Positions 27,668 through 59,946 of a stretch of DNA of 64,000 nt are shown here, in pieces. Origin of the DNA: Octopus sinensis (Eukaryota); the NCBI RefSeq assembly GCF_006345805.1, contig NC_043004.1, positions 71,238,001-71,302,000 of the forward strand, given 5' to 3'. Position 1 is the first letter of the stretch; each line of letters opens with the position of its first letter. A program made the position numbers and the translations under genes. A model generated the notes under the pieces. It searched no databases. It saw only the letters and a program-made list of their open reading frames with translations, and was not told the origin of the DNA.

Positions 27668-29432
27668 GAGTAAAAGGTAGTTCGGTATGTTAAAAGAATC
27701 ATTATCGGTAAAAATATACAAAATTCTATAATTATACGCATAATTATAATTAGGATTCAGCAAAAATTTGTTTCACCACATATCGAAATTTAGAAGTAGC
27801 AGTTAAAACTAACTATTTCACTACCATAAGAAAATCTCCCAGACAGCAATACTAAACAACCCATGCAGGTAAAGAAAAAAAATTACGAATCCACCCGGCT
27901 TTGATTAACTGTATACGCGTTTCGGAGTCAGAGAGATGTGAAAAATGTAAAATCCTATTCCCACTCTATCATATTTCCTCTTCAGTACAGTAATTCAAGA
28001 TTTTAAATTTGAGAGCACTGTAAGAATTAAACATACTTATCTGATTAGGCGACATCAGACACCATACATCTAACGACAGGTAATTCCGAATTCAAACAGA
28101 CGAATGAGATTTCGTATTCCTTCCCACTCACCCACGTGTGCTAATGAGTGAAATTTAACAGAAAAAAAGCTGTAGAGTGGAAATAGGATTTTACATTTTT
28201 TACATCTCTCTGACTCCGAAACGCGTATACAGTTAATCAAAGCCGGGTGGATACGTTATTTCTTCGCGTTGTTCTGTATTCGTCCAAATCGTGTGTATGT
28301 AGATTACAACCTCATCTGCCGAAAAGATCGTCACCGTCTTCGCCCAACTCCTCATCATGGTCATCTCATTTTTGTTGTCATCTTTCTCAAACACGACCCT
28401 CGTCAAGTTCATCATAAGCCTCTACAACATAAACATCATACATTACCACAATATACTGCCATCAGATGCAGAATCTTCGAAACATCATCATCATCACCAA
28501 CATTAACATCCCGACCAACAGCATCATATTCCGCATCACCATAGACATGCTAATCCCCGACATTATCTAAATAGTCAACATTAACATCATCAGCATCATA
28601 ACTTCTTCGTCATCATCACAACACACCATATACTTTTCTCAACAGTATCCACTTCATATTCATCACTGCCACCGCCATAACGTCCACTATCAACTCTACC
28701 ACCACCATTATCCTTCTATTCTACCTTCTGCTCACCACCATTATCATAACTATCATTATCGTCATGAACGTCATTATCAGTGTCATGAACTTTAAGGAAT
28801 CATCATCATGATCTACTTGCCAATCGCTTCCGTCACCTAATTGTTTAGCACAAATTCTGTCACAAATATTTTCTGTACAATTCCTTCATAATTCAATTTT
28901 ATGTTCCAGATCTTTGAGTTCTAATGATGTCAAAGAAATCAAAGTAGGCACCTTCCAAAATCTTTCCAGTTTAATAACTCTGTAAGTTGAATCAATTTTA
29001 TTTTCTAGTATTTCATTGGTGATACATTTCTAAATCTGTAATACCTTTCCATCCTTCGTTTTAAGCTCCCTCACCCATCTTTCCAAAACCGTTTTATATT
29101 GTTTGTGAATCGGTGTGCGTGAGCGAGTGCCCATTTCTGAGTTATAGAGAGCGCGATAGATCAGGGGAGTCATTTAGTGCATGCATACGTATGCCTCGGT
29201 TTATGTGTAAATACTGCCTGTATCCAAAGTGTGTGTTTCTGTATGTTAATGTGTGTGAATGTGGGTGACGGAAAGTAAGATAAGTGAAGGGAAAAATTGG
29301 TGCAGACGTTTTAATGCACACATACACGCGCGCACACACACACACACACACAACACACACACAAACATATATATATATATATATTAAAACGTCTGCACTA
29401 ATTTTTCCCTTCACTATATATATATATATATA

Positions 29433-29494
<62 letters not shown>

Positions 29495-30265
29495 TATATA
29501 TATATGTCTGTTTATATATACACGCGTGCGTATAATGTCTGTGTTATTCGGTCTATATATGATGTGCGGTGCTTGCGGCTCCATCACACTTATTACCTTC
29601 ATAGACTTTAAATTTGATAATCTTCTGGTTCTTGTTATTGCTGTTATTGTCGTGGTTGCTGCTCTTCTTCTTCTTCTTCTTCTTCTTCTTCTTCTTCTTC
29701 TTCTTCTTCTTCTTCTTCTTCTTCTTCTTCTTCTTCTTTCTTTCTTTCTTTCTTTCTTCTTTTTTTTCTTCATCTCCATCTTATGCCTCTGCATCGTGTT
29801 CTTCATCTAATTCTTCTACGTTTCCTTATTCGTCTCCCTCTACTTTCTCTTCTTTGTTGTCTTCCTCATTATCAATATCAACATTATAATCTGTGTCATT
29901 AACTTCATGAAAATAATCATAATCGTGATCTACGACCACCCCTCAATTGTTTAGCCAAATTTCAGTCAAAAATATGTTTTATGCAATTCCTTCTTAACTT
30001 AATTTTATGTTCCAGGAATTTACGCTCCAATGATATAAAGGAAATCAAAGCAGACGCCTTTCGGAATCTGTCCAGGTTAACAAATCTGTAAGTTAAATCA
30101 TTCGTTCTTATACTACTTCATTGATGATATATTTCTGAATCTCGATTTTTCTTATCCTTCCTCATCTTTGCGAATATGTATGTGTGTGAATGTTTGCACA
30201 TTTCTTAGTTATGTGATATATAAGAGTGTGATAGTTTATGCGAACCATTTAGTATATGATTGTGT

Positions 30266-30315
<50 letters not shown>

Positions 30316-30614
30316 TGTCTCTGAGCAAAGTGTGTGATTTTGTATGTTAATATATGTGAATGTGAGTGAGAGCCTGTTCCTTAGATAATAAGTATATGAA
30401 AGGGTGACAACAGAGGAAACAGGTTTGTGCGATGTTTACGTCTCTATCACAACTGAATACCATCACAGACTTTACTTCTACGTCTTCTTGGTCTTGTTGT
30501 TGTGGCAGTCGTCATTCCTGTTGTTCTTTGTCTTCTTGTCCTTCTTTATTTTCTTCTTCTTCTTCTTCTTCTTCTTCTTCGTCTTCTTCTTCTTCTTCTT
30601 CTTCTTCTTCTCTC

Positions 30615-30653
<39 letters not shown>

Positions 30654-32554
30654 TCTTTTCTTCCTATACTTCTCATTCTTTATCTTCCCCTTCTGTTTCT
30701 TCTTGTTCTTCTCTTACATCATCATCATCATCGTTTACTGAACTTTTCCATGTTATTCTTCATATTTCTCAAATCTGCTCCTTTTAATTCTTTTTCTGTA
30801 TTTCGATGTTGTTTCTCTACTTTTTGATTTTCTACTCCGGTCCCTCACAACTTCACATGTTCACTCACTTCATATTCATCATCATTATCCTCAATACTAT
30901 CAACCAAAAAAATGTTTGCGCCATCTACAACAACGCCAGTACTATCACCATCATGTTTTTTTCTCTTACAGCAGGTATTTGTTTAGTCATAATATTTTGT
31001 TATACAACACTTCTATGAATTTCGCATCTGAAAATATATTTTATTTTACAGATATTTGCAAAATAATAATATCGAAACAATTGAAGTAAGGGCTTTCCAT
31101 GACCTGACCAGTTTAAGATCTCTGTAAGTTGGATAAATCTTGTTGATAAAATTGCATTGACAATATACTAATAAATATTCAAAATATTCCCATTAATATT
31201 CGCACCATATATTTGTTCCTCCTTACATTCCTAATGTGTTTTGATAGAAATATGTAATTGTGAGTGTCTGTAAATATGAGTCTGTGAGTCTGTGAATCTG
31301 AATATGTGCTGGCATGTATAACATTTCGTGTTCTACCCGCCCTGCTAAATCTTCTTATACACTCGAACGTCACTTCCTTTACAACTACGGATATTTTTAC
31401 TACCAACACCACCACCACCACACCACCACCGCAATAACTACTGCTACTACTACTACTACTACTACTAACAACAAAAATCCATACTATGTACACCGCAACC
31501 ACATGTGGCGCGGAAATTGTCGACGTTCTCGACCTTGTTCTCATCAGCGACATCCTCCTAATTTTTGTTGTTAAATATCTCGTTCATAAATATCGTCAAA
31601 TTCATCATTGTCCTCCTCCTCATCAATATCATTCATTACCACAAAATGCTGCCATCACATGAAGTATCTTCAACACAACCATCATCATCACCGATATTAA
31701 GATAATCATCTTCAATGTCATGTTCATAATCCCCATAGATAGGCTAAACCCATCATTATCAGAATAATCAATCTACATAAACGCTTTGTTATCACCACAA
31801 CAGACCTTAGACACTTCTCCTCTGTCTCATTACCATGCTCATCACTACCACACAATCTATAATCGACTCTACTATCACAATTCTGCATAAGCTGTGTCTC
31901 CCCTTCTTCCTCCCCATCCCCCTCCTCCTCATCATCATCAACATCATCATCAGTGCCATGAATTTTATGGAATTAATCATCATCGTGTTCTGATTTCCAT
32001 CGATTCCATCATTTAATTGCTTTGCCAAATTCGGTTACACATAAGTTCTATACAATTACATATTAACTCAATTTTATGTTCCAGGAATTTAAGTTCAAAT
32101 GATATTACAGCAATCAAAGCCGATATCTTCCGAAATCTGTCCAGTTTACACACACTGTAAGTAGAATAATTTCTTTTTATAGGATATATTTCATCGACGA
32201 TATATTTCTAAATCCGTAACATCTAGCCATCCTCCATATGAAGCTCCCTCACACTTCTTTCCCAGAATGGGTTTTAGTGTTTGGGAATCTGTGGGTGTCA
32301 GTGTGTGCCCATTTTGTAGATATGAGATATATGACATTTTGATCATTCAGGGGAACCATATGGGGCATGTATGTGCATGTTTCTATGCACGCCGAAATCT
32401 ATCTCTTTAGGATTTAATAAAATTATAATGGGTTCCGTTTGTTTTTTGGGGGATCACCCTGTATGTTCATGGGTGTAAATATGAGTGAGGACCCTTTCTT
32501 GAGATTTGAAATATGTATGTATGTGACAATTAAGTAAATAAATTATTTGAAACG

Positions 32555-34001: not shown

Positions 34002-36878
34002 CATTCCTCACTATCATCATTATCTTCATTTTATCTCACTTCTACTTCTTCCAATTCTTTCTCGTTTCTTTTTTGTTCTGCTTTCGTGAATTTCACTTCC
34101 TGTTTCTCAATATTTCTTCTTATTTTCTCCTTTCTCTATCATTCTCTTGATTTTCTATTCGTCAGGATCCTATCCTATGTAATTCCCAGCAACAAAAATT
34201 GCCGACAAAACCTGTGGCCTCCTCATCTACATCCTCATCGCCGTCGTCCTTTACATATTCATTCTTACCTTTCTCAAGAATAAACAAATTCATTACGGTC
34301 CCCTTCTTCATCAACATAATTCTTTACCACAAAATACTGCCATCAGATGCAGAAACGTAAACACTATCATCATCATCACCAACGTTACTATCCCTGCTTA
34401 CACCATAAACAATATCATATTCAGCATCATCATAGATGTGCTAATTCCCGTCGTTATGGGAATAATCAAAATTAACATCTCCCCACTATCAGCATCTTCG
34501 TCGTCATCCCTACAAACCATTATACTCTTCTCCTCTGTCTCATCAACATATTCCTCACTACCATATCGTCCACTATCAATTCTAACACTGTCAAAATCTT
34601 TCTACTCCACCTCCGCCCCTTCATCATCCTTATTATCATCGGCATTAACATCATCATCGCTGCTATGAACTTTATGGAATTAACCATAATCGCGATATAC
34701 ATTTCACCCGAACCATCATCTAATTGTTTCGCCAATATTCTGTCACAAATATATTCTTTACACTTCCTTCTTAACTTAATATTATGTTCCAGAAACTTGA
34801 CTTTTAATGATATGAAGGAAATCAAAGCAGACACCTTCCGAAATCTGCCCAGTTTAACAAATCTGTAAGTTAAAAACCCACTTTCTTATACTATTTCGTA
34901 AACAATATATTTCTAAATTTGTACTCTCTTCCTAGGCTTTATTTGAAGTTCCCCCACTTGTGTTTCCAAAGATGTGTTTTATTGTTTGCGAATATGTTTC
35001 TATGTGTGTGTGTGTGAAAGAGAGAGAGAGGGGGAGACAGGAGAAAGAGTGTGCCCATTTTTTAGCTATGTGATATATGAGAGCGTGATAGTTCATGAGA
35101 ACCGTCTAGTGTATGTTATGTGTGTCTATGTGTATGTGTAAAATCTGGCTCTGCCCTTTGTATATTAATAGGTGTGAATGTGAGAGCCTTTTCCTCAGAT
35201 AATAAATATATGAAAGTGTGTGACAATTGAGGGGACAAATTTGTGTGTTGGTTACGTCTCCATCATCACTGATTACCAGCGTAGAACTTACCTGTGCTTC
35301 TTGTTGCGCTTGTAGGTCTTTGTTTTTGTTATTGTTCTTCTTTTTTCTTCTTTTCCTTCTTCTTCTTCTTCTCCTCTTTCTTCTTCTTTGCCTTCTTCTT
35401 CTTCTTCTACTTCTTCTTCGTCTTCATCTACGTCTTCTTCTTTTCCTTGATCCCCTTTTGCTTCTTTTTTATCTTCTTCACTCTGTCTTTGTATATACAC
35501 ACATATATATGCTTGTGTGTTTCTTTGTGAGTTTGTGTGTGTGTGTGGATGCGTATGTGTGTATGTGTGTGTGTCTGTGCGTTTGTATAAATATCAAAGA
35601 TAATTATCAAGAATGATTATCCGTTCTAATAGTATTTAGGTCTTCATTATTCTTATTTATCTTTCGCTTTAATCACCAGTTCATTCGTTTTCCACTTTCT
35701 TTGAAATTTCTATCTCCATTTCATTTGTCTCTTCTGGTCTCAAACATTTACATGTCGTGCAAATTTAATATTCATTCCTTTTACGTCTTCATCTCCTTTA
35801 AATCTGACCACAGAATTTATGCCTTCTTTTGTTACATCATCATTCTCACCAGCTATATTTCTTCTTCTTGCTCTTCTTCTTCCCCTTCTTGATTTTCTTC
35901 TGGCTAGTTTCTTCTTCTTCTTCTTCTTCTTTTTCTTCTTCTTCCTTTTTATCTTTCTTCCTCTTCTGAGTCTTCTCTTTCTTCCTCTTGTTCTTCTCTT
36001 TCATCATCATCATCCTTTACTCGACCTTTCATCTTATTCTTCATATCCTTTGTTTTGCGTTTCTTCTTTATTTCATCCCACATCTAGCATTTGTATTTTA
36101 AAGAAACTCCTCAATTCTACTCCTTCAGCGTTTTGCTGTTGCTCTTTCTCTTTTTACTGCTTCACTTCGTCAACTCATCCTCTTTCTTCTCATATTTTTA
36201 TTAACCTACTCGTTTCAATTATTATTCAATCTTCTTTTCTTTTTTGTATGTTGTCCTAATTTTCACATACATTTTTCACCACTGTTTTATATTTTCAAAT
36301 CTTCATGATTACTCTTTCAGATTAATCATCACTATAATCAATATTGTCAATCTCACAAATATTTGCACCATTTAGAGCAATGTCAGTATTATCTCCATCA
36401 ATATATTCATCATCATGTTTTTTCTTAGAGCAGGTATTCATTTTGACATATTATTTTATGCTATACAGAAGTTCTATGAATTTTACCTTTGAAAATATAT
36501 TTTATTTTACAGAGATTTACAAAATAATAAGATCGAAAAAATTGGAGTAAGAGCTTTTCATGACCTGCCTAGTTTAAAATCTCTGTAAGTTGACAATATA
36601 CTAATAAATATTCAAAATCTACCCATTAATATTAGTCCCATTATCCTTGTCCCTCCCTACATTGTCAATGTGTTTTTATAGAGATGTGTGACTGCTCGTG
36701 AGTGTCTGTAAATATGCGTGTCTGTGAGTGTGTGAATGTAAATGTGTTGGCACGTATATCTTGTGTTTCACCTACGATGCTACATCTACTTACACATTCG
36801 AACGTGTTTTCCTTTACAATTACGGATTTTGCTGTTACTACAACCAAAACAGCATCAACGATGACAACAACAACAATG

Positions 36879-37696: not shown

Positions 37697-38855
37697 ATAT
37701 CAGCAACGGTGCCATGAACTTTATGGTATTATTCAACATCGCGTTCTGATTTCCATAGCTTCCGTCATGTAATTGTTTAACCAAATTCTCTCACATATAT
37801 GTTCTATACAATTGCTTATTACTTGAATTTTATGTTCCAGGAATTTAACTTCAAATGATATTACAGCAATCAAAGCCGACATCTTCCGAAATCTGTCCAG
37901 TTTAACAACTCTGTAAGTAGAATGAGCTTATTTCATAGGATTTCATCGACGTTATATTTCTAAATCCGTAATACCGTTCCATCATTCATATGAATCTCCC
38001 TCAACTGACCTTCCAACGATGTGTTTTATTATTTTCCAATACGTGTGTGTGTGCGAGTGCGTGCCTATAACTTAGATATGGGACATATGACTTTGTAATA
38101 GCTCAGCGGAACCATCTGGGGCATGCATATGTATGTCTCTCTGTATGCAGAAAATCTATCTCTGTTGAAAATGTATGTTTTCTACAGGGTGACCAGAAAA
38201 GAAAAAAAAAACAGACCTCACAAATCTTTGAATAAACATGTTTGCATAAAACTACGCAGAATGATAGATCGAAATAAACAGTGGTCTCAGCATGACGAGG
38301 ATACCACCACAATTACATGTCTCGCTAGCCCGGCCGAGAGTGCGATTTCAGGAGGGACTGATTAACAGCAAGTGTGACATTGGGTGGGCAATGAATTCAC
38401 CGTTCTTGACCCCCACCCACATTTCTATCATTTTAAGTATAATGTTTACCAGAACAACCCTCAGACAACTGGTGAACTGAAGACAGCAATCACAGCAGAA
38501 ATCTGGGAAATCTCTAAAGAGGAATGCAATTGAGCAATTGACAATTTTACGCGACATATGCAAGTGATTGCGAGGCGTATGTCATTTAGAGCATATTTTA
38601 AAGAGAACATGTCTGCTGTGTAAAGGGAATGATCGTACACGGACCGAAGTATATGTTCTGAGATTTGCTGGAACTTTGTAGGATTTAATAACATTTTTAT
38701 GGGTTCTGTTTTTTGGGTGTCACTCTCTATGTTAATGAGTGTGAATGTTAATGAGTAACTTCTCCTTTAATCTGAAGTATAAAAGTGTGTAACAATTAAA
38801 AAGAAAAATTGGTTGAAACGTGTTGATGTGTGTATATATATATATAATATATATA

Positions 38856-39090: not shown

Positions 39091-41059
39091 GTGTGTGCAT
39101 GTAAATGTCTGTCTGTTTATTTATGAATATCTGCATGCGAGTATATCAAAATCTATGTGTAGTTCACTCTGTATATCATGAATTAGTTTAGGTCTCTACC
39201 TCCTTTGATTATTATAAGGAGTTTTACATCTTCTATATATTCTGGTTGTTGTTGTTGATCTTCAATTTTCTCCTCCTCCTCCTCCTCCTCCTTCTTCTTC
39301 TTCTTCTTCTTCTTCTTCTTCTTCTTCTTCTTCTTCTTCTTCTTCTTCTTCTTCTTCGTTTTCTCCTTCTCTTCTTTCACTTCTTTTTCGTATCATTTTT
39401 GTTCCACTTACGTGAATTTCCTTTCTATTTCTCAATATATCTTCTCATTTTCTCGTTACTCTCTCAATTGTCTTGATATAAATCTCAATCACGATTGCCG
39501 ACAAACATTCTTACCTGCTCGTCTATATTCTAATCATATCGTCCTTCACCTTTCGTTCTTACCTTTCTCAATCATAAACAAACCGGTCCCCTTCTTCATC
39601 AACATCATTCTTTACCACAAAATACTCCCATCAGATGCAGAATCTTAAAAAAATTATCATCATCACCAACGTTACCATTCCCACCTACATCATAAACAAT
39701 AACATATTCAGCATCATCAGAGATGTGCTAATTCCAATTGTTATGAGAATAATCAACATTAACATCATCACCTCCATCATCAGCATCTTAACATCTTCGT
39801 CATCATCACTACAAACCATGTATTCTTCTCCTGTGTCTCAAAAAAATATTCCTCACTACCATATCATCCACTATTAAATCTAACCCCCCAAAATCCACCT
39901 CCTCCTCTTCATCATCATTACAATTATCAACATCAACATCATCATCGATGCTATGAACTTTATGGAATAAATCATAATCGCGATCGACATTCCACGCCTA
40001 CCATCCTCTAATTGTTTAGACAAATATGTTCTACACAATTCCTTCTTAATCCAATATTGTTTTCCAGATACTTGACATTGAATGGTATGAACGAAATCGA
40101 AGCAGACACTTTCCGAAATCTGTCCAGTTTAACAAATCTGTAAGTGAAACCTTCTTTCTTATACTATTTCGTTGACGATGAACTCCTAAATCTGTAATAT
40201 CTTCCCATCCTTCATTGTAAGCTCCGTCAGCCCTCTTTCGGAAGATGTGTTCCATTGTTTGCGATTATGTGTGTGGGTGTGTGACCATTTCTTTCTTATG
40301 TGATATATGAGAGCGTGATAGTTCAGGCGAAACATTTATTGCGTATGCTTGTGCATGTCTCTGTGCATGTGTAAAGTCTGGCTCTGTCCAAAGTGTGTCA
40401 TTTTGTATATTAATATGTTTGAGTGTGAATGAGAGTCTGTTCCGCAGATAAATATATGAAAGTGTGACAATTGAGGAGAAATATTCGTGCGATGATTACG
40501 TCTCCATCATCACTGATTACCATGATAGACCTTACTTCTACTTATTCTTGGTTTTGTTGTTGCTGTTTTTGTTCTTCCTTTTTCCTTCTTCTGATTGCTA
40601 CTTTTCTTCATCTACGTCTTCTTTCCCTTGATCTTTTACTTCTTTTTTATCTTCTTCACTCTCTTTTTGTATATATACACACACACATATTTTTGTATGT
40701 TTCTTTGTGTGTGTGTGTGGTGTGTGTGTGTGTGGATGTTTCTCTTTGTGTGTGTATAAATATCAACGATTTAAGAATTTTGTCTCCACACTCCTTAATT
40801 TCTGTCTCTCAATTTCTACCTAAATCCATCTTATTCCTCTTTGGCTAAGCATGTGTTTATGCACATATCTTAGTGTGGATGAATGGGCATTCATGTTGAT
40901 ATGAGTATGTTTGTGAGTGTGCCAGCCCTCATCATTTCAACATGAAACCCTACAACTTTTCCTGGTTCGCTACATCATCAGCACCATTATAGAAACGAGT
41001 GACCAAGGGAATCATTAGCACGAATCACATCCAATTTCGGTCCCTAGTCCTCAGATCCA

Positions 41060-42785: not shown

Positions 42786-43810
42786 TACTACTACTACTAC
42801 TAACTATCTCATATTTTTTCTTTACCTGCCGCTTCTTATTCTTCTCTTTGTTCTTCCTCTTGTTCTTCTTTTGCATCATCATCATCATCATCATCATCCT
42901 TTACACAACATTTTATGCTATTCTTCATAATCTTCTTCGTTTTCCATTTCTTCTTTGTTTCATCCGATTTCTCGCATTTGTATTTTACATATTCCACTTC
43001 TCATTGCTACTCCTTTTACTTTTCTCCTGTATCTTGATGTTTCTCTTTTGTTTTGATCTTCTACTCCAGTCTCTCGTCACATCTCCCTCTTTCTTCTCTT
43101 CATTTTATTTTCCTAATCACTTCAATTTTTCTCAAAGCTCTTTTCCTTTTTATTCATTACGTTGTCGAAATGTTCACATACATTCTTCACCACTGTTTAT
43201 ATTTTCAATTCTTCATGATCTCATTTTTCATATTAATCATCACTATTATTAATATTGTCAATCTCACAAATATTTGCACCATTTAGAGCAACGTCACTAT
43301 TATCTCCATCAATATATTCATCATCAAGGACTTTTACTTCCAGCAGGTATTCGTTTAGCCATAATATTTTATGTTATACAACAATTCTATGAATTTCACC
43401 TATGAAAATATATTTTATGTTACAGATATTTGCAAAATAACAATATTGAAACGATCGAAGTAAGAGCTTTGCATGATCTGCCCAGTTTAAAATCTCTGTA
43501 AGTTGGATATGTCTTGTTCATAAAATTTTATTGACAATATATCACTAAATATTCAAAATATCCCCATTCATATTCGCCACACCAATGTGTTTTGATAGAG
43601 ATGTGTGATTGTTCGTGTCTGTAAATATGTGTATCCCTGTGTGCGTCAATATGAACATGTGTTGTCATGAATAATATTTTGTGTTCCTCTCAAACTGCTT
43701 GTTCTACTTATCCACTCGAACGGGAATTCCTTTACATCTACAGACATTGCTGTTACTACAACCACAACAGTATCGATGACAATAACTACTACTACTACTA
43801 CTACTACTAC

Positions 43811-46430: not shown

Positions 46431-48043
46431 ACAACATGATCATCATAATCATCAATATCATCATCGGTGCCCTGAACCTTATGGAACTAAACACCATCTT
46501 TTTCTGATTCCCATCGCTTCCATCATTTCATTGCTTAGCCTAATTCTGCCACAAATATGTTCTATATAATTGCTTATTACCTGAATTTTATGTTCCAGGA
46601 ATTTAAGTTCAAATGATATGCGGGCCATCAAGGCCGAAATCTTCCGAGGTCTGTCCAGTTTAGCAACTCTGTAAGTAGAATAATTTATTTTTATAGGATG
46701 TGATCGGCGTTGTGTTTCGAAATCCTTCATTTGAAGCTAGCCCACCCGCCTTTCTACAGTTGCGTTTTATTGTTTGGAAATCATCGTTTGTGTGAGTGTG
46801 TGCCCATTTCTTAGATGTAGGATATATGACGATGTTATAGTTCACGGGAACTATCTGGTACATGCATATGTTTGTCTTTATGTATGCGGAAAATCTATCT
46901 CTGTCCAAAGTGTATGTTTTCCACAGGGTGACCAAAACGAAAATCAGATCTCACAAAACTTTGAATAAAACTGTTTATATAAAGCAACGCAGAGGAACAG
47001 ATCGAGATGAACTGTGGTTTCAGCACAATGGGGCCAACCACCACGCAACAAATGACTCACAAGCCGGGATGAGAGAGCGACTTCCGGAGAGACTGTAGGA
47101 AGCGTGACGTTGAGGGGTTACCGCATTCACTGTTTTTGGACCCTACCCAGATTTTTATCAGTGTGGGTATCTGAAGGAACATGTTTGCCAAAACAAGCCT
47201 GAAATGATTGATGGTCTGAACGAAGCAAACGCAGCAAAAATATGGGAAATAACCAAAGAGGAATACATTCGAGGAATTGAGAATTTTGCGCTGCGTAATA
47301 CTCTTTACTCTTTTACTTGTTTCAGTCATTTGACTGCGGCCATGTTGGAGCACTGCCTTTAATCGAGCAACTCAACCCCGGGACTTATTCTTTGTAAGGC
47401 CAGTACATATTCTATCGGTCTCTTTTGCCGAACCGCTAAGTGACGGGGACATAAACACACCAGCATCGGTTGTCAAGCAATGCTAGGGGGACAAACACAG
47501 ACACACAAACATACAGGCACACACACACACACACTTATATATATATATATATATATACATACATATATACCATGGGCTTCTTTCAGTTTCCGTCTACCAA
47601 ATCCACTCACAAGGCTTTGGTCGGCCCGAGGCTATAGTAGAAGACACTTGCCCAAGGTGCAACGCAGTGGGACTGAACCCGGAACCATGTGGTTGGTAAA
47701 CAAGCTACTTACCACACAGCCACTCCTGCGCCTATTTGGAGCATATCTAGAAAAGAAGACGATTTTTATGGAAAAGATAGGATCGTACACAGACCGATGT
47801 TTAATTTCAGCAAATTTCATAAAATTTGCTGAACCTTTGTATGATTTAATAAAATGTTTTCGGTTCTGTTTTTTTGTTATTTGGGTGGGTGGGGGTCAAC
47901 TTTTATTTTAATAAGCGTGAATGTGAGTGAGGATACTCCCCAGAAATGTAAATATAAGTGTGTGACAATTAAAAAGAAAATTTAGTTGAAATGTGTTTAT
48001 GTACACACACACACACACCACACACACACACCACACACACACA

Positions 48044-52247: not shown

Positions 52248-53810
52248 TATATATATATATATATGTATATGTATATATTATTTTTTCCTTTTGGGGTTAG
52301 ATTTTGGGTTAGTTACGGTTAGGGTTAGACGTGGGGGAAGGGTATCTTTTTTCTTCACAAATGTAAATACACTCTATCTGTTTCTTAAACAGGGACATAT
52401 TAAGACAGTACAGAATGTTGTTTACGTAAATGGAGGTAATCGATTGGTTAAAATTGCCGAAATGCTAGAAATTAAAGACGAAATATGTTACCTAGAAATT
52501 ATGATACAAACTGCCGTTCAAACCGAAAAGATCCGGCAAAACAAGCTTCTGTCACTAATATATTCCTTACAATTCCTTCTTAACTCAATATTTTCTTCCA
52601 GATACTTGACTAATAATGATATGAAGGAAATCAATGCGGACACCTTCCGAAATCTGCCCAGTTTAACAAATCTGTAAGTGAAATCATCCTTTCTTATACT
52701 ATTTCGTTGATGATATATTTCTAAATCTGTACTATTTTCTCATCCTTCATTGTAAGCTCTCTCACCTTTCCAAATGTGTTTTATTGTTCGTGAATATGTA
52801 TGTGTGTGAGTGTGTGCTCATTTTTTAGTTATGTGATATTTGAGATGTATGTGTAAAGCCTGTCTTTGTCCAAAGAGTGTGATTTTCTATGTTAATATGT
52901 GTGAATATGAGTAAGAACCTGTTCCTCAGATAATAATTATATGCAAGTGTGCAAATTGAGGAGAAAAATTTGTGCGATCGAAGGCCTTATATCTACTTCG
53001 TCCAGGTCTTTTTCCTTCTTCTTCTTCTCCTTTTTCTTCTTATCTCCTCCTCTTTCGTTTTCCTTCTTCTTCTTCTTCTTCTTCTTCTTCTTCTTCTTCT
53101 TCTTCTTCGTTTTCTTCTTCTTCTTCTTCTTCTTCTTCTTCTTCTCCTTTTTCTTCTTATCTCCTCCTCTTTCTTTTTCCTTCTTCTTCTTCTTCTTCTT
53201 CTTCTTCTTTTCTTCTTCTTCTTCTTCTTCTTCTTCTTCTTTTTCTTCGTCTTCAGCTTCTAGCTTTATTCTTTTTTCGTTTTCTTCGCATTTATCATCT
53301 TTGCTACTTGATTAGTATTTCGTATGAGCCTTAACAATTTTGTCACCAAACCCCTTACCTTCTGTCTCTCAATCTCTGCCCGAATCCTTCTTATTCTCCT
53401 CTGGCTAAACGTATCTTTGTGGATGAATGGGCATTCGCATTGACATGTGTATGTTTGTGTGTATATCAGCCCTCATCACTTAAACAGGAAACCCAACAAC
53501 TTTTCCTCGTTCGCTACATCTTCAGTTCCTTTTTAGGGTCGAGTAGCCAAAGAAATCATCAGCAGGAACCCCTTCCGATTTTGGTCTCTACTCCTTACTC
53601 ACCTCCAACTATCCTCTCTCTCTTTCTCTCTTTGTATATGCACACATATATTCTTGTGGGTGTGTCTGTTTGTCTCATTCTTCTACATCCATCCTGTCCT
53701 CTTCTTCATCCCCTACTTTTCTCTTCTTGTTGTTGCTGTTGTTGTTGCTGTTGTCGTTCTTCTTCTTTTTCTTCTTCTTCTTCTTCTTCTTCTTATTCTA
53801 CTACTACCAT

Positions 53811-53872: not shown

Positions 53873-54930
53873 TTCTTCTCTTTCATCATCGTCATCTTTT
53901 TCATATTCTTCTTCTTCTTCGTTTACTGTTTTTTCTTTGCTTCATCCCATTTCTCGCATTTTTATTCAACATATTCGACTTCTCAATTCTACTCATTTTA
54001 CTTTTCTTCTGCCTTTTGATGTTGTTTCTCTTCGTTTTGATTTTCTATTCCAGTCCCGCGTCATCCTCTTTCTTCTCATCTTTGTATTCAATTTTTCACG
54101 GAGCTCTTTTTATTTCTATCCTTTCCAATGTCGCGATTTTCACATACAATTTTCACCAGATTTATATTTTCAATTCTTCATGATCACCCTCTTAATATTC
54201 ATCATCACTCTCATCAATATCATGAACTTCACAGATGCTTGTACCTTCTATAGCAAGCTCAGTATTATCTTCATCAGTGTTTTTTTTTTACAACAGGTAT
54301 TCGTTTAACCATAATATATTATGCAACACTTTTATAATCTCACCTTTAAAATATATTTTCTGTTACAGACATTTGCAAAGTAATAATATCGAAATCATTG
54401 GAGTAAGAGCCTTGCATGTCCTGCCCAGTTTAAAATATCTGTAAGTTACATAAGTCATGTTCGTAAAATTTCATTGACAATATCATTCATCATTGTTCGA
54501 CCGTGGTCGAGACAATGGAATTTACTATGCCAGACTTCACGGTCCATCATAGCATTACGGACGTCCTGTTGCTGGATGCCTGTAGCCATGGAGATTACAT
54601 CAGGGTAGGAGAGTGTGCGCCCTCTGGTATCGCGAGTAGATGGCTTCCAGAGGAGAAAAGTAGAAATTGCCTCGTTTTGACAATATACTCTCTCTTTACT
54701 CTTTTACTTGTTTCAGTCATTTGACTGTGGCCATACTGGAGCACCGCCTTTAATCGAGCAACTCGACCCCGGGACTTATTCTTTGTAAGCCCAGTATTTA
54801 TTCCATCGGTCTCTTTTGCCGAACCGCTAAGTGACGGGGACATAAACACACTAGCATCGGTTGTCAAGTAATGCTAGGGGGACAAACACAGACACACAAC
54901 ACACACACACACACACACCACACACACACA

Positions 54931-54980
<50 letters not shown>

Positions 54981-55379
54981 GGCGGGCTTCTTTCAGTTTC
55001 CGTCTACCAAATCCACTCATAAATCTTTGGTCGGCCCAAGGCTATAGTAGAAGACACTTGCCCAAGGTGCCACGCTGTGTGACTGAACCCGGAACCATGT
55101 GGCTGGTAAGCAAGCTACTTACCACACAGCCACTCCTGCGCCTATATACTATATACTAATAAACATTCACAATCTTCTCATTCGCACCATATCCTTCTTC
55201 CTCCATACATTTCCAAGAAATGTGTGATTGTGAGTGTCTGTAAAAATGTGTGTCTGTGATTGTGTGCATCTCAATATGTGTGGGCATCTATAATATTTTG
55301 CGTTTTACACACCCTGCGTCATGTTCGTATCCACTCGAACGTTGCTTCCTTTACAACAACAGACATTGCTGCAACAGTG

Positions 55380-55410: not shown

Positions 55411-57370
55411 TCTTTTTATTGCTCTTTCATTCATTATTTTCTTGTTCTTTTAGCTATTCTTATTCCTATACTATATATTTTTTCAGCAAGAATGTGAACC
55501 ACATGTATCCTCATTTCCATCATCATTAGCATCATCATCATAGAAAACACAAGGAAACTGTGTTCTTCGTCATCATCATCATCGACATCTTCATCATCAT
55601 CATCATCATTATCATCATAATCATCATTTGCTTTTTCTCTTTCCATTTCTTCCTTTTTCTTATTTTGCATCAATTTTTTATGTTTTATTGTTGTTGTTGT
55701 TGTTGTTGTTCTTCTTCTTCTTCTTCTTCTTCTTCTTCTTCTTCCCCTCCTCCTCCTCCTCCTCCTCCTCCTTCTTATTTTATTATTATTAACCTTCCTT
55801 TTCTTCTCTTCCTACTCCTTCATTTACTTCGTCTTCTTCTTTGTCTTCTTGAATGAATCCTCATCGTGTTCTGATTTCCATCGCTTCCATCATTTAATTG
55901 CTTAGCCAAATTCTGGTAAATATATGTTCTATATTAACTCAATTTTATGTTCCAGGGATTTAAGTTCAAATTATATGAAGGCAATCAAAGCCGACATCTT
56001 CCGAAATCTGTCCAGTTTAACAACTCTGTAAGTAGAATAATATTTTCCTATCCTTCATTTGAAGCTACCCCACCCGACTTGCAACAAATGTGTTTTTTGT
56101 TTGGAAATCGACGTGTGTGTGAGTGTGTAGTCATTTTTTTAGTTATGTGATATATGACAGTGTGATAGTTCAGGGGAACCCTCTGGTGCATGTATGTGTA
56201 TGTATTTATGGTTGCGGAATATCTTTCTCTGTCCAAAGTGTATGTTTTATGCAGGGTGGCCAAAAGAAATGAAAAAAGATCTCAGAAAGCTTTGAATTAA
56301 ACTGTTTGAATAAAATTTCACTGACGGATAGATCGAGATAAACTGTGGGTTCAGCAAGACGCCCCCCCCCCCTCAGGTATCAAATGATTCCCTAGCCTGG
56401 CTGACAGCGATTTCAGGAGAGGCTGATCAGCAGGAAATGTGACGTTGAGTGGGCACCACATTTATTGGTCTAGGAACTCCTAGATTTTATTAAAGTTGGA
56501 AACTCAACGATTAATGAACTGAAGCCAGCAATCACAGCCAAAAAATCAGGGAAATGCTCAAAGAAGAATGTGTTCGAGTAATTGACAATTTTGTACGACG
56601 TTTGCAATTGTTTGCGCGATGTGTGTCATTTGGAGCATATTTTGAAACAGATATGACTTTTAAGCAAAGGGAATAATCATACACAGCCCTAAGTTTAAGT
56701 CCAGCAAATTTCAAGATATTTGCTGGAACTTTGTAGGATTAAATAAAATATATTTGGGTTCTAATTTATTTTGGTGGCCACCCTGTATATTAATGAGTGT
56801 CAATGTTAGTGAGGACTCTTTTCTGACGTATATAAGTGTGAGGCAAATAAGTAGAAAAATCAATTGAAATCTGTTTATGTACATATATTTAGAGAGATTT
56901 AGAAAAAGTATTTCTATCTTTGAAGATCCAGTAGATGTCTCTCACTGAATATATATATATATATATCACGTGACCGTGACCGACCAGGCCATCAGATGCC
57001 GCCACACATCGCTGGTCACAATGCGTTCGCATTTTTTTAGCCTTCGAATGACGCCACCCCGCTGGCTAAGCGAGCAGGCCAATATATACATATATATATA
57101 TATATATAATTAAACATTCGACCAGACAGTTAACAGCGACCCCTGCTGAGTTGAGTTTATGTACTCCGTATTGATAAATGGCAAATACTCCGAAACTAGT
57201 CTGTGAATGCTGAACTAACAGGTGGACGCTAATAATCTCGCCTCTTCTGAGGACGTAATAGAAACAGGTTTGGTTGTTAAAGAGCTAGATGGAGGCGATG
57301 GCTTCTTGGAGCTAATCAACGGAACATTCTCCTCTGATTCTTCTAGACTGCCATGTGAGCTTGGTGAGAA

Positions 57371-57413
<43 letters not shown>

Positions 57414-57864
57414 GTCACTGTTTATATATGACTGTCTGCATGCGAATCTATAAAAATGAATGTGTAATTCAGTGTATATGGTGAACTTTGTTTAGGTTTC
57501 CACCAGCATTGATGACCGTCTTCGACTTTACATCTTTTCTTTCTGCTCGTTGTTGTTGTTGATCTCTCTTTACCAATCTTCTTTGACTTCTTGCTTTGCT
57601 CCTTTTAACCACCTTCTTCTTCTTCTTCTTCTTCTTCTTCTTCTTCTTCTTCTTCTCTTCTTCTTCTTCTTCTTCACCTTCTTCTTCGTCTACTTGATCC
57701 TATCATCATCATCATCGTCATCATCATCATCATCGTCATCGTCATCATCATCATCATCATCGTCATCGTCGTTATCATCATCATCGTTATCATGGTCATC
57801 ATCATCATCATCGTCATCATCATCACCATCATCATCATTGTCATCATCATCATCATCATCATCG

Positions 57865-57913
<49 letters not shown>

Positions 57914-58224
57914 CGTCATCGTCGTCATCATCATCATCCTCATCATCATCGTCATCGTCATCGTTTTCGTCATCGTCATCATCATCATCGTCATCATCGC
58001 CATCATCGCCATCATCGGCATTATCATCATCATCATCATCATTGTCTTCGTCATCGTCATCATCATCATCATCGTCTTGATCATCATCATCATCATCGTC
58101 ATCATCGTCATCATCGTCATCATCATCTTCATGATCATCATGATCATCATTATCATCATCATGATCATCATTATCATCATCATCATCATCGTCATCATCA
58201 TCATTATCATCATCGTCATCATCG

Positions 58225-58255
<31 letters not shown>

Positions 58256-59946
58256 CGTCATCGTCATCATCGTCATCATCATCATCGTCATCATCATCAT
58301 CATCGTCATCATTATCATCATCCTCATCGCCAACGTTAACATCCCCACTTACATCATAATCAATATCATATTCAGAATCATCATGGACGTGCTAATCCTC
58401 TTCATTATGAGAATAATCTACATTAACAAAATCCATCCTATCGTCATCTTTTAAAGATATTCGTCGTCATCGTTACAAACCATTTACTCTTCTCTGTTTC
58501 ATCAACTTATTCATCACTATCACATTGTCCACTACTATCGGGAAAATTGACCTCGTCTTCATCTTCATTACAATCATTAACATCAACATCATCTTCGGTG
58601 CTAAGAGACTTTATGGAATTAAATATCAACATTCCACATCTACATTCCACATCCGGCATCATTGTTTCGCCAGTCTTTCGTCACAAATATATTCTTTACA
58701 ATTCCTTCTTAACCCAATATTGTTTTCCAGATTATTGGCCTCTAATGACATGAAGGAAATCAAAGCAGATACCTTCCGAAATCTGTCTAGTTTAACAAAT
58801 CTGTAAGTTTAATAATTCTTTCTTATACTATTTCGTTGACAATATATTACTAAATCTGTACTAATTTTCCATCCTTGAATTGAAGCTCCCTCTCTTGTGT
58901 TTCCGAAGATGTGTCATTGTTTTCGAATATGTGTGTCTCAGAGTGTATTCCCATTACTTAATTATATTGTATGTGAGAGCGATATAGTTCCGAAGAACAA
59001 GTTAGTGTACGCTTGTGTGTGAGTTCGTGTATGTGTAAAGTCTCTCTCTAGTCAAAGTGTGTCATTTTCTATATTAATATCACTGAGAACCTTTTCCGCA
59101 GAAAACAAATATTTGAAATTGTGACATTTGAGCAAACAAATCTGTGCGATGATGACGTCTCTATCACCATTGATTACCATCATAAAATTGACTTCTTATC
59201 CTTATTGTAACATTTGTTGTTGTTGTTGCACTCATCGTCGTTGTTTCTGTTGATGTTGTTGTTGTTTTACTTCCTTCTTCATGTTCTTGTTCTTGTTCTT
59301 GTTCTTCTTGCTCTTCTTCTTCTTCTTCTTCTTCTTCTTATCATCATTCATCATTTTCTGGTCTTTCTATTTCTTCTTTTTCTCCATATTTTGCGCCAAT
59401 ATCATTTTTTATTCAACCTTTTCTTATTATTCTTCATATCTTCTTCACATTTCTATTTTACTAATTCGTCTTCCCCCTTCTCCCCCTTTTACTTCTGTTC
59501 GACATTTTGATTTTCTACTCTCGACCTTCGTCCCTCCTCCCTCTTTCTCAGTTCCTTTCTATTCTCCAAACGCTTCAATTTTTCTCCGAACACTTTTTCT
59601 CTTTATTCATTCCGTTGTCACAAATTTCAAATAAAATTTCCATTCCTCTTTTATATTTTCATTTCTTCATGATCACTATCTATATATTCAATATCATTAT
59701 CATTAATATTATCAGTATCACAATATTAGACCCAAATACTATAGCGTCTAAATTATCATCATCGTGCTACTCATCATGTTCTTATTCTTCCAGCAAGTAT
59801 TCGTTTAATCATAATATTTTTTATTATACAACACTTCTATAATTTCACATATGAAAATATATTTTATATTACAGATATTTGCAAAATAATAATATCGAAA
59901 CAATTGAAGTAGGAGCTTTCCCAGACCTGCCCAGTTTAAGATCTCT
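19448..59946 (+). CDS. Partial multi-exon gene: 18 single-LRR exons (18 x 72 nt = 1296 nt, 432 codons) encoding an extracellular 24-aa LRR solenoid; both termini not found in the window
   Basis: All 18 exons were read by hand: YAG acceptor, GTAAGT donor, 72 nt, phase 2-2, no stops or indels. The spliced product follows LxxLxLxxNxIxxIxxxxFxxL. Introns are 954-7090 nt. Confidence 0.92.
20722..20793 (+). CDS. LRR exon 2: [23 protein letters not shown](L)
   Basis: ttgcag|a tac ctg...gaa ct|gtaagt; 72 nt. Confidence 0.92.
21748..21819 (+). CDS. LRR exon 3: [23 protein letters not shown](I)
   Basis: ttccag|a gat ttg...att at|gtaagt; 72 nt. Confidence 0.9.
21863..22192 (-). mobile_element. tRNA-derived SINE (family 3), inserted ~45 nt after the exon 3 donor
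   Basis: Minus-strand head ggcgcaggggtggctgtgtggtaag...ggttcagtccc, then ttgggcaagtgtct; homologous to 47300-47734 and 54688-55144. Confidence 0.85.
22661..27278 (-). mobile_element. Penelope-like retroelement (RT + GIY-YIG), near full length but frameshifted, with direct-repeat pseudo-LTRs (22661-23042 and 26931-27278), inserted in a (TA)n tract
   Basis: Minus-strand fragments contain [27 protein letters not shown] (RT), CNDSRCGTC and [19 protein letters not shown] (GIY-YIG). The ORF ends KFEPKLNK* at 23339-23341. Near-identical ~350-380 bp repeats lie at both ends. Confidence 0.9.
22794..22838 (-). ncRNA. Minimal type I hammerhead ribozyme-like motif in the 3' pseudo-LTR of the Penelope-like element (variant core)
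   Basis: Reverse complement reads UGAAC CCGAAGA U UGCA gaauucaa UGCA C GAAA GUAC UA GUUCA: stems I and II pair, palindromic stem III, CCGA instead of CUGA. Confidence 0.6.
27908..27991 (-). ncRNA. Minimal hammerhead motif with long loop II, within a PLE-type inverted repeat (partial inverted copy at ~28173-28255)
   Basis: Reverse complement reads ACUGUA CUGAAGA GGA...UCC GAAA CGCG UA UACAGU. Confidence 0.7.
28910..28981 (+). CDS. LRR exon 4 (A-like): [23 protein letters not shown](L)
   Basis: ttccag|a tct ttg...act ct|gtaagt; 72 nt. Confidence 0.92.
29283..29415. repeat. Local inverted duplication (33-bp arms) around a CA/TA microsatellite
   Basis: agtgaagggaaaaattggtgcagacgttttaat ... attaaaacgtctgcactaatttttcccttcact. 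Confidence 0.85.
30016..30087 (+). CDS. LRR exon 5 (B-like): [23 protein letters not shown](L)
   Basis: ttccag|g aat tta...aat ct|gtaagt; 72 nt. Confidence 0.92.
31052..31123 (+). CDS. LRR exon 6 (C): [23 protein letters not shown](L)
   Basis: ttacag|a tat ttg...tct ct|gtaagt; 72 nt. Confidence 0.92.
32085..32156 (+). CDS. LRR exon 7 (A): [23 protein letters not shown](L)
   Basis: ttccag|g aat tta...aca ct|gtaagt; 72 nt. Confidence 0.92.
32408..32461 (+). mobile_element. Right end only of the same Tc1/mariner relic after exon 7
   Basis: taggatttaataaaatt...gggttcc...tttttgggggatcaccctg|ta. Confidence 0.7.
32673..33594 (+). mobile_element. Solo-LTR-like element (~920 bp)
   Basis: TGTTGCG...CGTAACA inverted termini and an internal TATAAAT at 32861; no clear target-site duplication. 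Confidence 0.5.
34793..34864 (+). CDS. LRR exon 8 (B): [23 protein letters not shown](L)
   Basis: ttccag|a aac ttg...aat ct|gtaagt; 72 nt. Confidence 0.92.
36513..36584 (+). CDS. LRR exon 9 (C): [23 protein letters not shown](L)
   Basis: ttacag|a gat tta...tct ct|gtaagt; 72 nt. Confidence 0.92.
37841..37912 (+). CDS. LRR exon 10 (A): [23 protein letters not shown](L)
   Basis: ttccag|g aat tta...act ct|gtaagt; 72 nt. Confidence 0.92.
38185..38727 (+). mobile_element. Internally deleted Tc1/mariner-type element in the intron after exon 10
   Basis: TA|CAGGGTGACC...GTCACTCTC|TA termini; degenerate C-terminal transposase (W.QHD.., [28 protein letters not shown]). Confidence 0.8.
40068..40139 (+). 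CDS. LRR exon 11 (B): [23 protein letters not shown](L)
   Basis: ttccag|a tac ttg...aat ct|gtaagt; 72 nt. Confidence 0.92.
41140..41508 (-). mobile_element. Tc1/mariner-like transposase N-terminal (HTH) fragment
   Basis: [21 protein letters not shown]... then a frameshift to [23 protein letters not shown]; the GRP linker between two HTH-like regions is typical. Confidence 0.55.
42290..42805. repeat. (CTA/CCA)n compound microsatellite
   Basis: Direct reading. Confidence 0.9.
43426..43497 (+). CDS. LRR exon 12 (C): [23 protein letters not shown](L)
   Basis: ttacag|a tat ttg...tct ct|gtaagt; 72 nt. Confidence 0.92.
44680..45855. repeat. Expanded (CTT)n-type pyrimidine tract; similar tracts occur in most introns of the LRR array
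   Basis: Direct reading. Confidence 0.95.
46599..46670 (+). CDS. LRR exon 13 (A): [23 protein letters not shown](L)
   Basis: ttccag|g aat tta...act ct|gtaagt; 72 nt. Confidence 0.92.
46924..47903 (+). mobile_element. Paralogous copy of the same Tc1/mariner relic after exon 13, interrupted by a SINE
   Basis: cagggtgacc start; [11 protein letters not shown]; same intronic position. Confidence 0.75.
47300..47734 (-). mobile_element. SINE family 3 copy nested in the mariner relic
   Basis: Near-identical to 54688-55144. Confidence 0.85.
48150..48195 (-). ncRNA. Minimal type I hammerhead ribozyme motif
   Basis: Reverse complement reads UCU CUGAUGA A GGGAUA ugcauag UAUCCC A GAAA CAGCUG UA AGA. 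Confidence 0.7.
49140..50520 (-). mobile_element. Second, degenerate Penelope-like retroelement (RT region)
   Basis: Minus-strand fragments [41 protein letters not shown] and WKRYLDDCF, with multiple frameshifts. Confidence 0.85.
51334..51858 (+). repeat. About 1.5 copies of a 353-bp hammerhead-containing monomer (retrozyme-like or PLE pLTR-like) flanked by (TA)n
   Basis: 51334-51502 is repeated at 51687-51858; the hammerhead lies in the intervening part. Confidence 0.8.
51600..51644 (+). ncRNA. Canonical minimal type I hammerhead ribozyme
   Basis: CACACG CUGACGA GAGG ucaaua CCUC GAAA CUCGAG UC CGUGUG: 6-bp stem I, 4-bp stem II, palindromic stem III, GUC cleavage triplet. Confidence 0.88.
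52602..52673 (+). CDS. LRR exon 14 (B): [23 protein letters not shown](L)
   Basis: ttccag|a tac ttg...aat ct|gtaagt; 72 nt. Confidence 0.92.
54369..54440 (+). CDS. LRR exon 15 (C): [23 protein letters not shown](L)
   Basis: ttacag|a cat ttg...tat ct|gtaagt; 72 nt. Confidence 0.9.
54486..54681 (-). mobile_element. 3' fragment of an RTE-like LINE
   Basis: Minus strand reads [43 protein letters not shown]. Confidence 0.6.
54688..55144 (-). mobile_element. SINE family 3 copy
   Basis: Near-identical to 47300-47734. Confidence 0.85.
55956..56027 (+). CDS. LRR exon 16 (A): [23 protein letters not shown](L)
   Basis: ttccag|g gat tta...act ct|gtaagt; 72 nt. Confidence 0.92.
56252..56785 (+). mobile_element. 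Paralogous copy of the same Tc1/mariner relic after exon 16
   Basis: cagggtggcc...ggccaccctg|ta terminal inverted repeats; [10 protein letters not shown]; [13 protein letters not shown]. Confidence 0.8.
57700..58330. repeat. Expanded (CAT/CGT)n tract
   Basis: Direct reading. Confidence 0.95.
58731..58802 (+). CDS. LRR exon 17 (B): [23 protein letters not shown](L)
   Basis: ttccag|a tta ttg...aat ct|gtaagt; 72 nt. Confidence 0.92.
59875..59946 (+). CDS. LRR exon 18 (C): [23 protein letters not shown](L)
   Basis: ttacag|a tat ttg...tct ct|gtaagt; 72 nt. Confidence 0.92.

What the first reader, a model, noticed from the sequence alone, without database searches (positions are those of the whole stretch)
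28910..59946. Higher-order repeat: five tandem A-B-C exon triplets
Exons fall into three classes in strict order. A (7, 10, 13, 16): xLSSND..[16 protein letters not shown], acceptor ttttatgttccag|G, donor GTAAGTAGAAT. B (8, 11, 14, 17): ..[20 protein letters not shown]. C (6, 9, 12, 15, 18): [24 protein letters not shown], acceptor ending ttacag. Exons 4 and 5 are more divergent A- and B-like members. Flanking intron sequence is also class-specific. The gene therefore grew by duplicating a 3-exon (72-aa) unit, after earlier single-exon duplications (exons 1/2 and 3/4 are similar pairs).
Basis: seen in the sequence. Interest (0 to 1): 0.75.

Follow-up and report, generated by a model that had tools for sequence, protein, structure and literature searches.

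The report
Octopus receptor's triplet-built repeat arm
These small exons are part of a 43-repeat leucine-rich arm of a likely octopus cell-surface adhesion receptor, and the arm likely grew by copying blocks of three exons (further on, two and four), a known way for repeat proteins to lengthen, here on an unusually large scale.

Summary
All 18 exons are real 72-nt, phase-2 LRR cassettes. Identity peaks at lag 3 (0.84 vs 0.62; 0 of 20,000 shuffles), and whole introns match by class. The window has four full A-B-C triplets plus B5-C6, not five: exon 4 is not clearly A-like, and exons 3/4 are not a special pair. Beyond the window the array reaches 43 exons: six full triplets, then a 2-exon tier and a 4-5-exon tier. 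It continues into LRRCT, a Ly6-like domain, four SEA-like/HRM modules, GAIN, an intact GPS motif and TM1: an octopus ADGRG6-like adhesion GPCR, cut by assembly gaps at both ends. Copies are old (exons at most 93% alike) and under purifying selection (pN/pS 0.45), without hypervariability. Within-class distances are star-like and not congruent. One contig of a probable RNA run fits in-order splicing of exons 21-22-23-25. One module exon is frameshifted as assembled. The family and the block-duplication mechanism are published, and this scan already noted four-exon versions in sister genes. New here: the length and three stacked periods.

The parts
17626..17725 (.). Assembly gap (100 N) 1.7 kb upstream of exon 1; the signal-peptide/N-cap exon was not found
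19448..19519 (+). LRR exon 1 (pairs with exon 2)
20722..20793 (+). LRR exon 2
21748..21819 (+). LRR exon 3 (unclassed, A/B superclass)
28910..28981 (+). LRR exon 4 (unclassed; not clearly A)
30016..30087 (+). LRR exon 5, class B (by tree and by its downstream intron)
31052..31123 (+). LRR exon 6, class C
32085..32156 (+). LRR exon 7, class A
34793..34864 (+). LRR exon 8, class B
36513..36584 (+). LRR exon 9, class C
37841..37912 (+). LRR exon 10, class A
   Evidence: (LRR_8 E 0.002)
40068..40139 (+). LRR exon 11, class B
43426..43497 (+). LRR exon 12, class C
   Evidence: (LRR_8 E 0.0005)
46599..46670 (+). LRR exon 13, class A
52602..52673 (+). LRR exon 14, class B
54369..54440 (+). LRR exon 15, class C
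55956..56027 (+). LRR exon 16, class A
58731..58802 (+). LRR exon 17, class B
59875..59946 (+). LRR exon 18, class C
59947..64000 (+). Intron 18-19, running off the window. The gene continues (window numbering extended; add 71,238,000 for G000:C8): exons 19-24, two more A-B-C triplets, 64,242-78,432; exons 25-43 (B, unclassed, (D-E)x3-D, F-G-G-H-E, F-G-H-E, terminal repeat), 81,954-140,120; LRRCT and two Ly6-like exons, 145,178-151,733; four 5-exon SEA-like + HRM modules, 171,342-217,448, with a 97-nt frameshifting exon at 197,658; GAIN, GPS (236,382-236,537) and TM1 exons, 221,544-239,805; assembly gap at 240,599

Best explanation
The exons encode part of a 43-repeat leucine-rich arm on a likely octopus adhesion GPCR, and the A-B-C rhythm is most likely the footprint of old tandem duplications of a three-exon block, introns included. 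Shown: one repeat per 72-nt symmetric exon; six full triplets; class-specific introns; a 2-exon and a 4-5-exon tier behind them; LRRCT, Ly6-like, SEA-like/HRM, GAIN, GPS and TM1 exons downstream on the same strand of one gap-free stretch; purifying selection on the repeat core. Inferred: unequal crossing-over between look-alike introns copied the block in a short burst, or later exchange blurred the history (star-like classes). Every exon is in phase 2 and every possible junction gives L, I, V, M or F, so any block copy keeps frame and fold. The exons are likely spliced in order into one long solenoid (about 1,030 aa, roughly 200 A of contour by the recalled 4.8 A per repeat) with a surface pattern repeating every third turn. 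By analogy with known adhesion GPCRs, the arm would bind a partner cell or matrix ligand at a distance, and load on it would expose the TSFALLM peptide after GAIN self-cleavage to activate the 7TM part. Ligand, cleavage and TM2-7 are not shown.
For: Periodicity and shuffles. Trees. Whole-intron matches 15 of 19, at 70-80% identity. 43 exons give 1,031 aa with no stop, and all 16 junction codons are hydrophobic. All 72 modelled exons have AG/GT, and leaving out one of the recently duplicated modules gives an open 2,018- or 2,023-aa frame from LRR1 to TM1. Pfam GPS E 2e-15. 16 of 17 candidates for the GPS exon pass E 1e-8; all 16 are octopus proteins, 13 named ADGRG6/G2/GPR126-like and 3 GAIN-B. 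O. bimaculoides P0017 has 13 repeats matching exons 31-43 in the same order, then LRRCT, Ly6-like, SEA-like and HRM; its 88% amino-acid identity (12 full-length repeats) exceeds the 70-76% within A, B and C, so the triplets are probably older than that split if rates are similar. pN/pS 0.45 (bootstrap 0.30-0.63), core positions 0.11. In run X14 (RNA only by guess), rows at one contig depth (14.7) carry four substitutions found together only in exon 21 and three joints that leave exactly at exon ends, none of the joints seen in run X7. The entry points fit exons 22, 23 (or another B) and 25. The model of P0017 is a typical LRR solenoid.
Against: Within-class distances are not congruent, so a simple one-copy-at-a-time history cannot be reconstructed. 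Both gene ends lie in gaps: no N-terminal exon was found nearby and only TM1 is present. With all 72 exons included the frame stops at residue 1558 because of the 97-nt exon. No retrieved protein contains the A-B-C tier (191 examined). The splice evidence is one set of contig rows in one run whose RNA nature is guessed and which also holds intronic contigs; what lies between the joined exons is listed as not known.
Confidence: 0.7

Rival explanations
1. The triplet is a selected functional unit: A, B and C together form one binding site that is repeated six times to grip a periodic ligand multivalently, and selection keeps the register.
For: Class-fixed exposed residues: Q3 in 7 of 7 C, S4 in 6 of 6 A, T22 in 8 of 8 B. 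The register is unbroken over 18 exons. The 2- and 4-5-exon tiers keep their order in O. bimaculoides.
Against: Shared ancestry alone predicts this, since non-coding introns show the same period. Concave positions are the least constrained group (pN/pS 0.75 vs 0.11 core). The register breaks at both edges (B5-C6; C24-B25). None of 3 paralogous stretches shows period 3 (lag 3 reached by 828, 4376 and 527 of 5,000 shuffles).
Confidence: 0.2
2. The array is a splice-diversified recognition receptor like brown-algal ROCO or Dscam: exons are chosen combinatorially, or one per class, to give many binding specificities.
For: Every exon can be skipped in frame. A paralog is annotated with a 1,208-aa isoform and five 1,184-aa isoforms that each lack one 24-aa repeat (predicted models). 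Brown-algal ROCOs use the same 72-bp phase-2 layout (PMC11378527, passages). The four D exons show concave pN/pS 2.15 (four exons, untested).
Against: No diversifying selection in A, B or C (concave pN/pS 0.87, 0.94, 0.49). The one spliced contig fits genomic order. P0017 is modelled with 13 consecutive exons. Strong donors throughout (39 of 43 begin GTAAGT).
Confidence: 0.12
3. The gene now makes mainly a secreted ectodomain (LRR43-LRRCT-Ly6-two modules), because the 97-nt exon truncates the frame before GAIN.
For: Stop at residue 1558 when all exons are used. The O. bimaculoides model P0017 also ends before GAIN.
Against: The shift includes a one-base shortfall in an A run inside a 95%-identical recent duplicate, which is what a sequencing error would look like. 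GAIN, GPS and TM1 exons are intact, and skipping one module gives an open frame.
Confidence: 0.15
4. The periodicity is an assembly artefact, or the result of single-exon duplication followed by gene conversion.
For: Star-like, incongruent classes are compatible with conversion.
Against: Copies differ too much for false duplication (exons at most 93%, introns 70-80%). No near-identical second copy among 40 scored of 73 candidates. In run X7 (kind not on record), 6 of 8 listed contig pieces match the window with 0-4 differences; the other two have 13 and 29. Conversion alone would not order whole introns by position modulo 3.
Confidence: 0.03

Closest known systems
Octopus-specific adhesion GPCR expansion, group 3 (Ritschard et al. 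2019, PMC6408891; passages read; supplements not read)
   Same: Octopus adhesion GPCR with GPS; LRRs reported in 5 of 22 sequences; GPS-exon relatives are octopus ADGRG6-like proteins at 65-83% identity; 48 GPS-exon matches in this genome.
   Different: The passages read do not describe exon structure, repeat number or periodicity. Retrieved relatives that were inspected have at most 13 repeats in their models and one genomic paralog has 17 LRR exons, against 43 here.
Multi-domain tandem duplication of protein repeats, e.g. the nebulin 7-domain/4-exon block (Bjorklund et al. 2006, PMC1553488; passages read)
   Same: Repeats grow by several units at a time, often in the middle of the array, and are detected by lag autocorrelation.
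   Different: That survey found LRRs peaking at a unit of two. Here units of 3, 2 and 4-5 are stacked in one gene, each repeat is its own exon, and introns record the blocks.
Brown-algal ROCO LRR exons (PMC11378527; passages read) and human exon-modular LRR families such as NLRP3 (PMC6642158; passages and section 6 read)
   Same: One LRR per 72-bp phase-2 exon (ROCO); frame-preserving modules that can be skipped.
   Different: Those are not adhesion GPCRs. ROCO shows diversifying selection and many splice forms; the A-B-C tier shows no such selection and no skip form was seen. In NLRPs the two-repeat unit lies inside one 171-bp exon.
LU-domain 7TM receptors of molluscs, arthropods and starfish (PMC13719153; passages read)
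   Same: A three-finger (LU) domain in the ectodomain of a GPCR-like protein.
   Different: The LU match here is weak (Pfam E 0.21). No long periodic LRR arm is described in the passages read.

Membership tests
Adhesion GPCR | GAIN domain with GPS motif and H-L/T cleavage site | tested here: met
   Pfam GPS E 2.1e-15, motif CSCNHLTSFALLM; GAIN exons match named relatives
Adhesion GPCR | Secretin-type seven-helix domain | tested here: inconclusive
   Only TM1 is present (7tm_2 E 0.027); an assembly gap follows and TM2-7 were not found in the next 160 kb
Adhesion GPCR | Long N-terminal ectodomain of adhesion modules in frame with GAIN | tested here: inconclusive
   Open 2,018/2,023-aa frame if one module is skipped; stop at residue 1558 if all exons are used. 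Paralogs join the same domains in one protein
Adhesion GPCR | Signal peptide / N-cap exon | tested here: inconclusive
   No match near the locus among 73 matches of 78 candidates; a gap lies 1.7 kb upstream of exon 1
Adhesion GPCR | Autoproteolysis and tethered-agonist signalling | not testable with these tools
   Inferred from the motif only
Octopus-specific group 3 adhesion GPCRs | Nearest relatives are octopus ADGRG6-like proteins in a large paralog family | tested here: met
Octopus-specific group 3 adhesion GPCRs | Placement inside the published group-3 7TM clade | not tested
   The 7TM is missing here and the paper's sequence list (supplement) was not read
Higher-order (multi-exon) tandem duplication | Similarity peaks at multiples of the unit in exons and in non-coding flanks | tested here: met
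Higher-order (multi-exon) tandem duplication | Whole introns homologous by position in the unit | tested here: met
   15 of 19 best hits are of the same type; 1 goes to the hybrid C24-B25 intron; 3 go to introns of another type, two of them shown to share an interspersed repeat
Higher-order (multi-exon) tandem duplication | Congruent within-class histories | tested here: inconclusive
   Mantel r 0.06, 0.40, 0.13 (298, 37 and 244 of 720 permutations as high), B vs C -0.13; classes are star-like, so power is low
Diversified LRR receptors (ROCO/VLR-like) | One LRR per symmetric 72-nt exon | tested here: met
Diversified LRR receptors (ROCO/VLR-like) | Positive selection on the concave face | tested here: not met
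   A-B-C pooled concave pN/pS 0.75; A 0.87, B 0.94, C 0.49
Diversified LRR receptors (ROCO/VLR-like) | Combinatorial splicing of this gene | tested here: inconclusive
   One contig fits in-order splicing; single-exon skips are annotated only in a paralog
Toll-like receptor / LGR | TIR domain or rhodopsin-type 7TM behind the LRRs | tested here: not met
   The LRRs lead to HRM-GAIN-GPS instead; the database name 'toll-like receptor 5' for P0017 is not backed by any TIR hit

The most novel reading that the evidence does not exclude
Octopus adhesion GPCRs use exon-block duplication as a tunable code: this receptor displays six copies of one three-repeat binding site plus two other repeated sites on a very long LRR arm, reading a periodic ligand multivalently, with block number varying between species or alleles and exon skipping tuning reach and avidity, as a GPCR counterpart to the protocadherin/Dscam recognition codes.
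Probability: 0.12. Interest if true: 0.75.

Novelty: new member of a known kind. Interest (0 to 1): 0.36.

Why it matters
It gives a clean record, readable in the introns, of how one receptor arm grew through three different block sizes. It also suggests that current annotation misses most of the gene: no retrieved protein holds the triplet tier, and the likely O. bimaculoides orthologue is named a Toll-like receptor. The octopus-specific GPCR expansions are reported to be expressed mainly in arm nerve cord, suckers and skin, or in gills in a second species (PMC6408891, passages), so arm length and periodicity are testable handles on what these orphan receptors bind. As mechanism, it is known biology.

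Tried and rejected
Exon 4 as class A and exons 3/4 as a pair: rejected. Lost A or C exons in the C24-B25, B25-26 or 3-4 introns: profile searches found no convincing pseudo-exon (43 known hits, all others E 0.12 or worse); the C24-B25 intron looks like a C-type 5' end joined to an A-B-type 3' end, so a clean loss of A is possible but untested. Congruent trees: not found, low power. Positive selection in A, B, C: not found (counting method, pairs not independent, concave positions assigned from recalled LRR geometry and consistent with the strands). Period 3 in paralogs: 0 of 3 stretches examined; these are a few of dozens of family loci, and four exons with uncertain ends (one in C9192, three in C6355) were left out of that count. 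Protein evidence for the triplet tier: none among 191 retrieved proteins; these searches are capped and clustered. N-terminal exon and TM2-7: not found beside the locus. Expression: no RNA holder listed on record; runs X19 and X24 gave no listed exon joints, which is no evidence either way. Reads were laid only on 28,700-35,250 and only as contigs, so depth, collapsed triplets and copy-number variation remain untested. Pfam on four intronic ORFs: 1 of 4 hit. The A-B-C tier itself was not folded; the model is of the orthologue's exons 31-43 region (mean pLDDT 63.5, about 90 over residues 140-340). Literature: seven completed searches listed no paper on exon-block periodicity in octopus adhesion GPCRs. 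The library lacks most subscription papers, and the unread supplement of PMC6408891 may list the orthologue.

Full report
Observation. For exons 4-18 the mean identity is 0.84 at lags 3 and 6 and 0.62 at lags 1 and 2. None of 20,000 order shuffles reaches this contrast, for exons or for either 150-nt intron flank. Leave-one-out assigns 13 of 13 exons (6-18) to their class by exon and by flank. After masking simple repeats, 15 of the 19 introns from B5-C6 to B23-C24 have an intron of the same type as best match, at 70-80% identity over hundreds of bases. One goes to the hybrid C24-B25 intron, and three go to introns of another type, two of which are shown to share an interspersed repeat. The triplet is therefore a DNA block of about 6-9.5 kb, not only a protein motif.

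Corrections. Exon 4 is not A-like, and 3/4 is not a special pair; 1/2 is a pair, mainly by its flanks. The window holds four full triplets and a B-C half. All pairs are 75-87% alike, so the classes are star-like and the test is weak. A burst of copying or later exchange between copies would both give this (inference).

The whole gene. The window is G000:C8:71,238,001-71,302,000 of a 2.7-Gb genome. Neighbouring stretches extend the array to 43 exons: 1, 2, 3, 4, B5, C6, (A-B-C)x6, B25, 26, (D-E)x3, D33, F-G-G-H-E, F-G-H-E, 43 (classes). Then come an LRRCT exon, two Ly6/uPAR-like exons (Pfam E 0.21, weak), four five-exon modules of a SEA-like fold plus HRM, GAIN exons, a GPS exon (E 2e-15, CSCNHL/TSFALLM) and TM1. 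'SEA-like' rests on the strand-helix order in the model and on recall; Pfam gave no SEA hit. All 72 exons have AG/GT ends. One module exon is 97 nt where its sister has 95, which gives a stop at residue 1558; leaving out one recent duplicate module gives an open frame of 2,018 or 2,023 aa. Gaps lie 1.7 kb before exon 1 and 0.8 kb after TM1, so the N-terminus and TM2-7 are unseen and 43 is a minimum.

Family. The GPS exon retrieves 16 octopus proteins, most named adhesion GPCR G6-like, and 48 places in this genome. PMC6408891 (passages) describes an octopus-specific adhesion GPCR expansion (group 3) with LRRs in 5 of 22 sequences. O. bimaculoides P0017 carries 13 repeats that match exons 31-43 one to one and in order, followed by the same domains. 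Its 88% identity exceeds the 70-76% within A, B and C, so the triplets probably predate that split (inference, equal rates assumed). Its model is a typical LRR solenoid whose top matches include LGR4, LRRTM2 and chondroadherin. No retrieved protein contains the triplet tier. Three paralogous stretches have the same kind of exon (17, 26 and 13 profile hits) but no period 3.

Selection and splicing. The 43 exons read as 1,031 aa without a stop, and every possible exon-to-exon junction gives L, I, V, M or F. Within A, B and C pN/pS is 0.45 (0.30-0.63): core 0.11, concave face 0.75. That is purifying selection with a relaxed binding face, not an arms race. In run X14 (RNA by guess only, and also holding intronic contigs), rows at one contig depth show four substitutions that occur together only in exon 21, and three joints that leave at exact exon ends; run X7 shows none of these joints. 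The entry points 34797, 34795 and 34803 are those expected for exon 22 (under 2 of 3 penalty settings), exon 23 or another B, and exon 25. This fits in-order splicing, but it is one contig, and what lies between the pieces is not known. A paralog has five annotated isoforms that each lack one repeat, so some skipping in the family is plausible.

Mechanism. Symmetric exons make any block duplication harmless to frame and fold, and look-alike introns invite unequal crossing-over, so whatever block was first copied sets the local period (inference). This matches the general finding that repeats grow several units at a time (PMC1553488, passages). The product is likely a long solenoid with a surface pattern repeating every third turn, on a receptor that would signal by GAIN cleavage and a tethered agonist (established adhesion-GPCR knowledge, recalled; untested here). 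A selected three-repeat binding site (0.2), a splice-diversified receptor (0.12) and a secreted truncated form (0.15) remain open; an artefact is unlikely (0.03).

Earlier scan notes (unchecked AI notes) had reached the same family and four-exon blocks in sister genes, and one led me to PMC13719153 (passages). Their claim of hypervariable exons, made for other loci, does not hold for this tier. Verdict: real and well supported, a striking member of a known family grown by a known process; interest 0.36.

Noticed in passing
G000:C8:71,409,342-71,455,448 (window numbering 171,342-217,448): A second higher-order repeat in the same gene: a five-exon SEA-like + HRM module in four copies, with 2.7-3.1-kb stretches about 95% identical. 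O. vulgaris P0016 also has repeated modules.
   Followed up: partly
window numbering 243,942-262,006, minus strand, beyond the gap at 240,599: Inverted fragment of a close paralog (LRRCT, Ly6-like, HRM, GAIN start) with no LRR exon detected in the next 140 kb; database protein P0019 matches it. Possible misjoin or truncated copy.
   Followed up: partly
exons 27, 29, 31, 33 (window numbering 87,682-100,806): Class D shows concave-face pN/pS 2.15, the only class clearly above 1; four exons only, not tested for significance.
   Followed up: no
window 54,709-55,141; also introns 3-4, 13-14 and 39-40: A shared interspersed repeat in two pieces of about 170 and 150 bp, 88-94% identical, likely inserted after the triplet duplications.
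   Followed up: partly
window 23,838-24,521 (-), 49,277-49,687 (-); L011:2277-4097 (+): Retroelement-like reading frames in introns 3-4, 13-14 and 19-20; the last has a weak GIY-YIG hit (E 6e-4). 'Penelope-like' is a recalled label.
   Followed up: partly
G000:C6355:10,622-13,054 and 26,534-29,638: A paralog has a recent block duplication (exons 90-97% identical) that includes two LRR exons broken by TTC/TCC microsatellite runs.
   Followed up: no
G000:C9192:21,156-21,403, 12,113-12,885, 26,373-26,568: LRR exons separated by very short introns (about 120-400 bp) in a paralog with at least 26 LRR exons.
   Followed up: no
P0042 (461 aa, named O. sinensis LRRC15-like): A paralog model with near-identical repeats recurring every second or third unit, ending after the SEA-like part without Ly6 or GAIN.
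   Followed up: no
G000:C8:71,101,718-71,101,831 (+): Another GPS-like exon about 136 kb upstream of the window on the same strand, suggesting a local cluster.
   Followed up: no
window 18,837-19,070: High-copy interspersed repeat (90-95% identical copies on many contigs) just upstream of exon 1.
   Followed up: no
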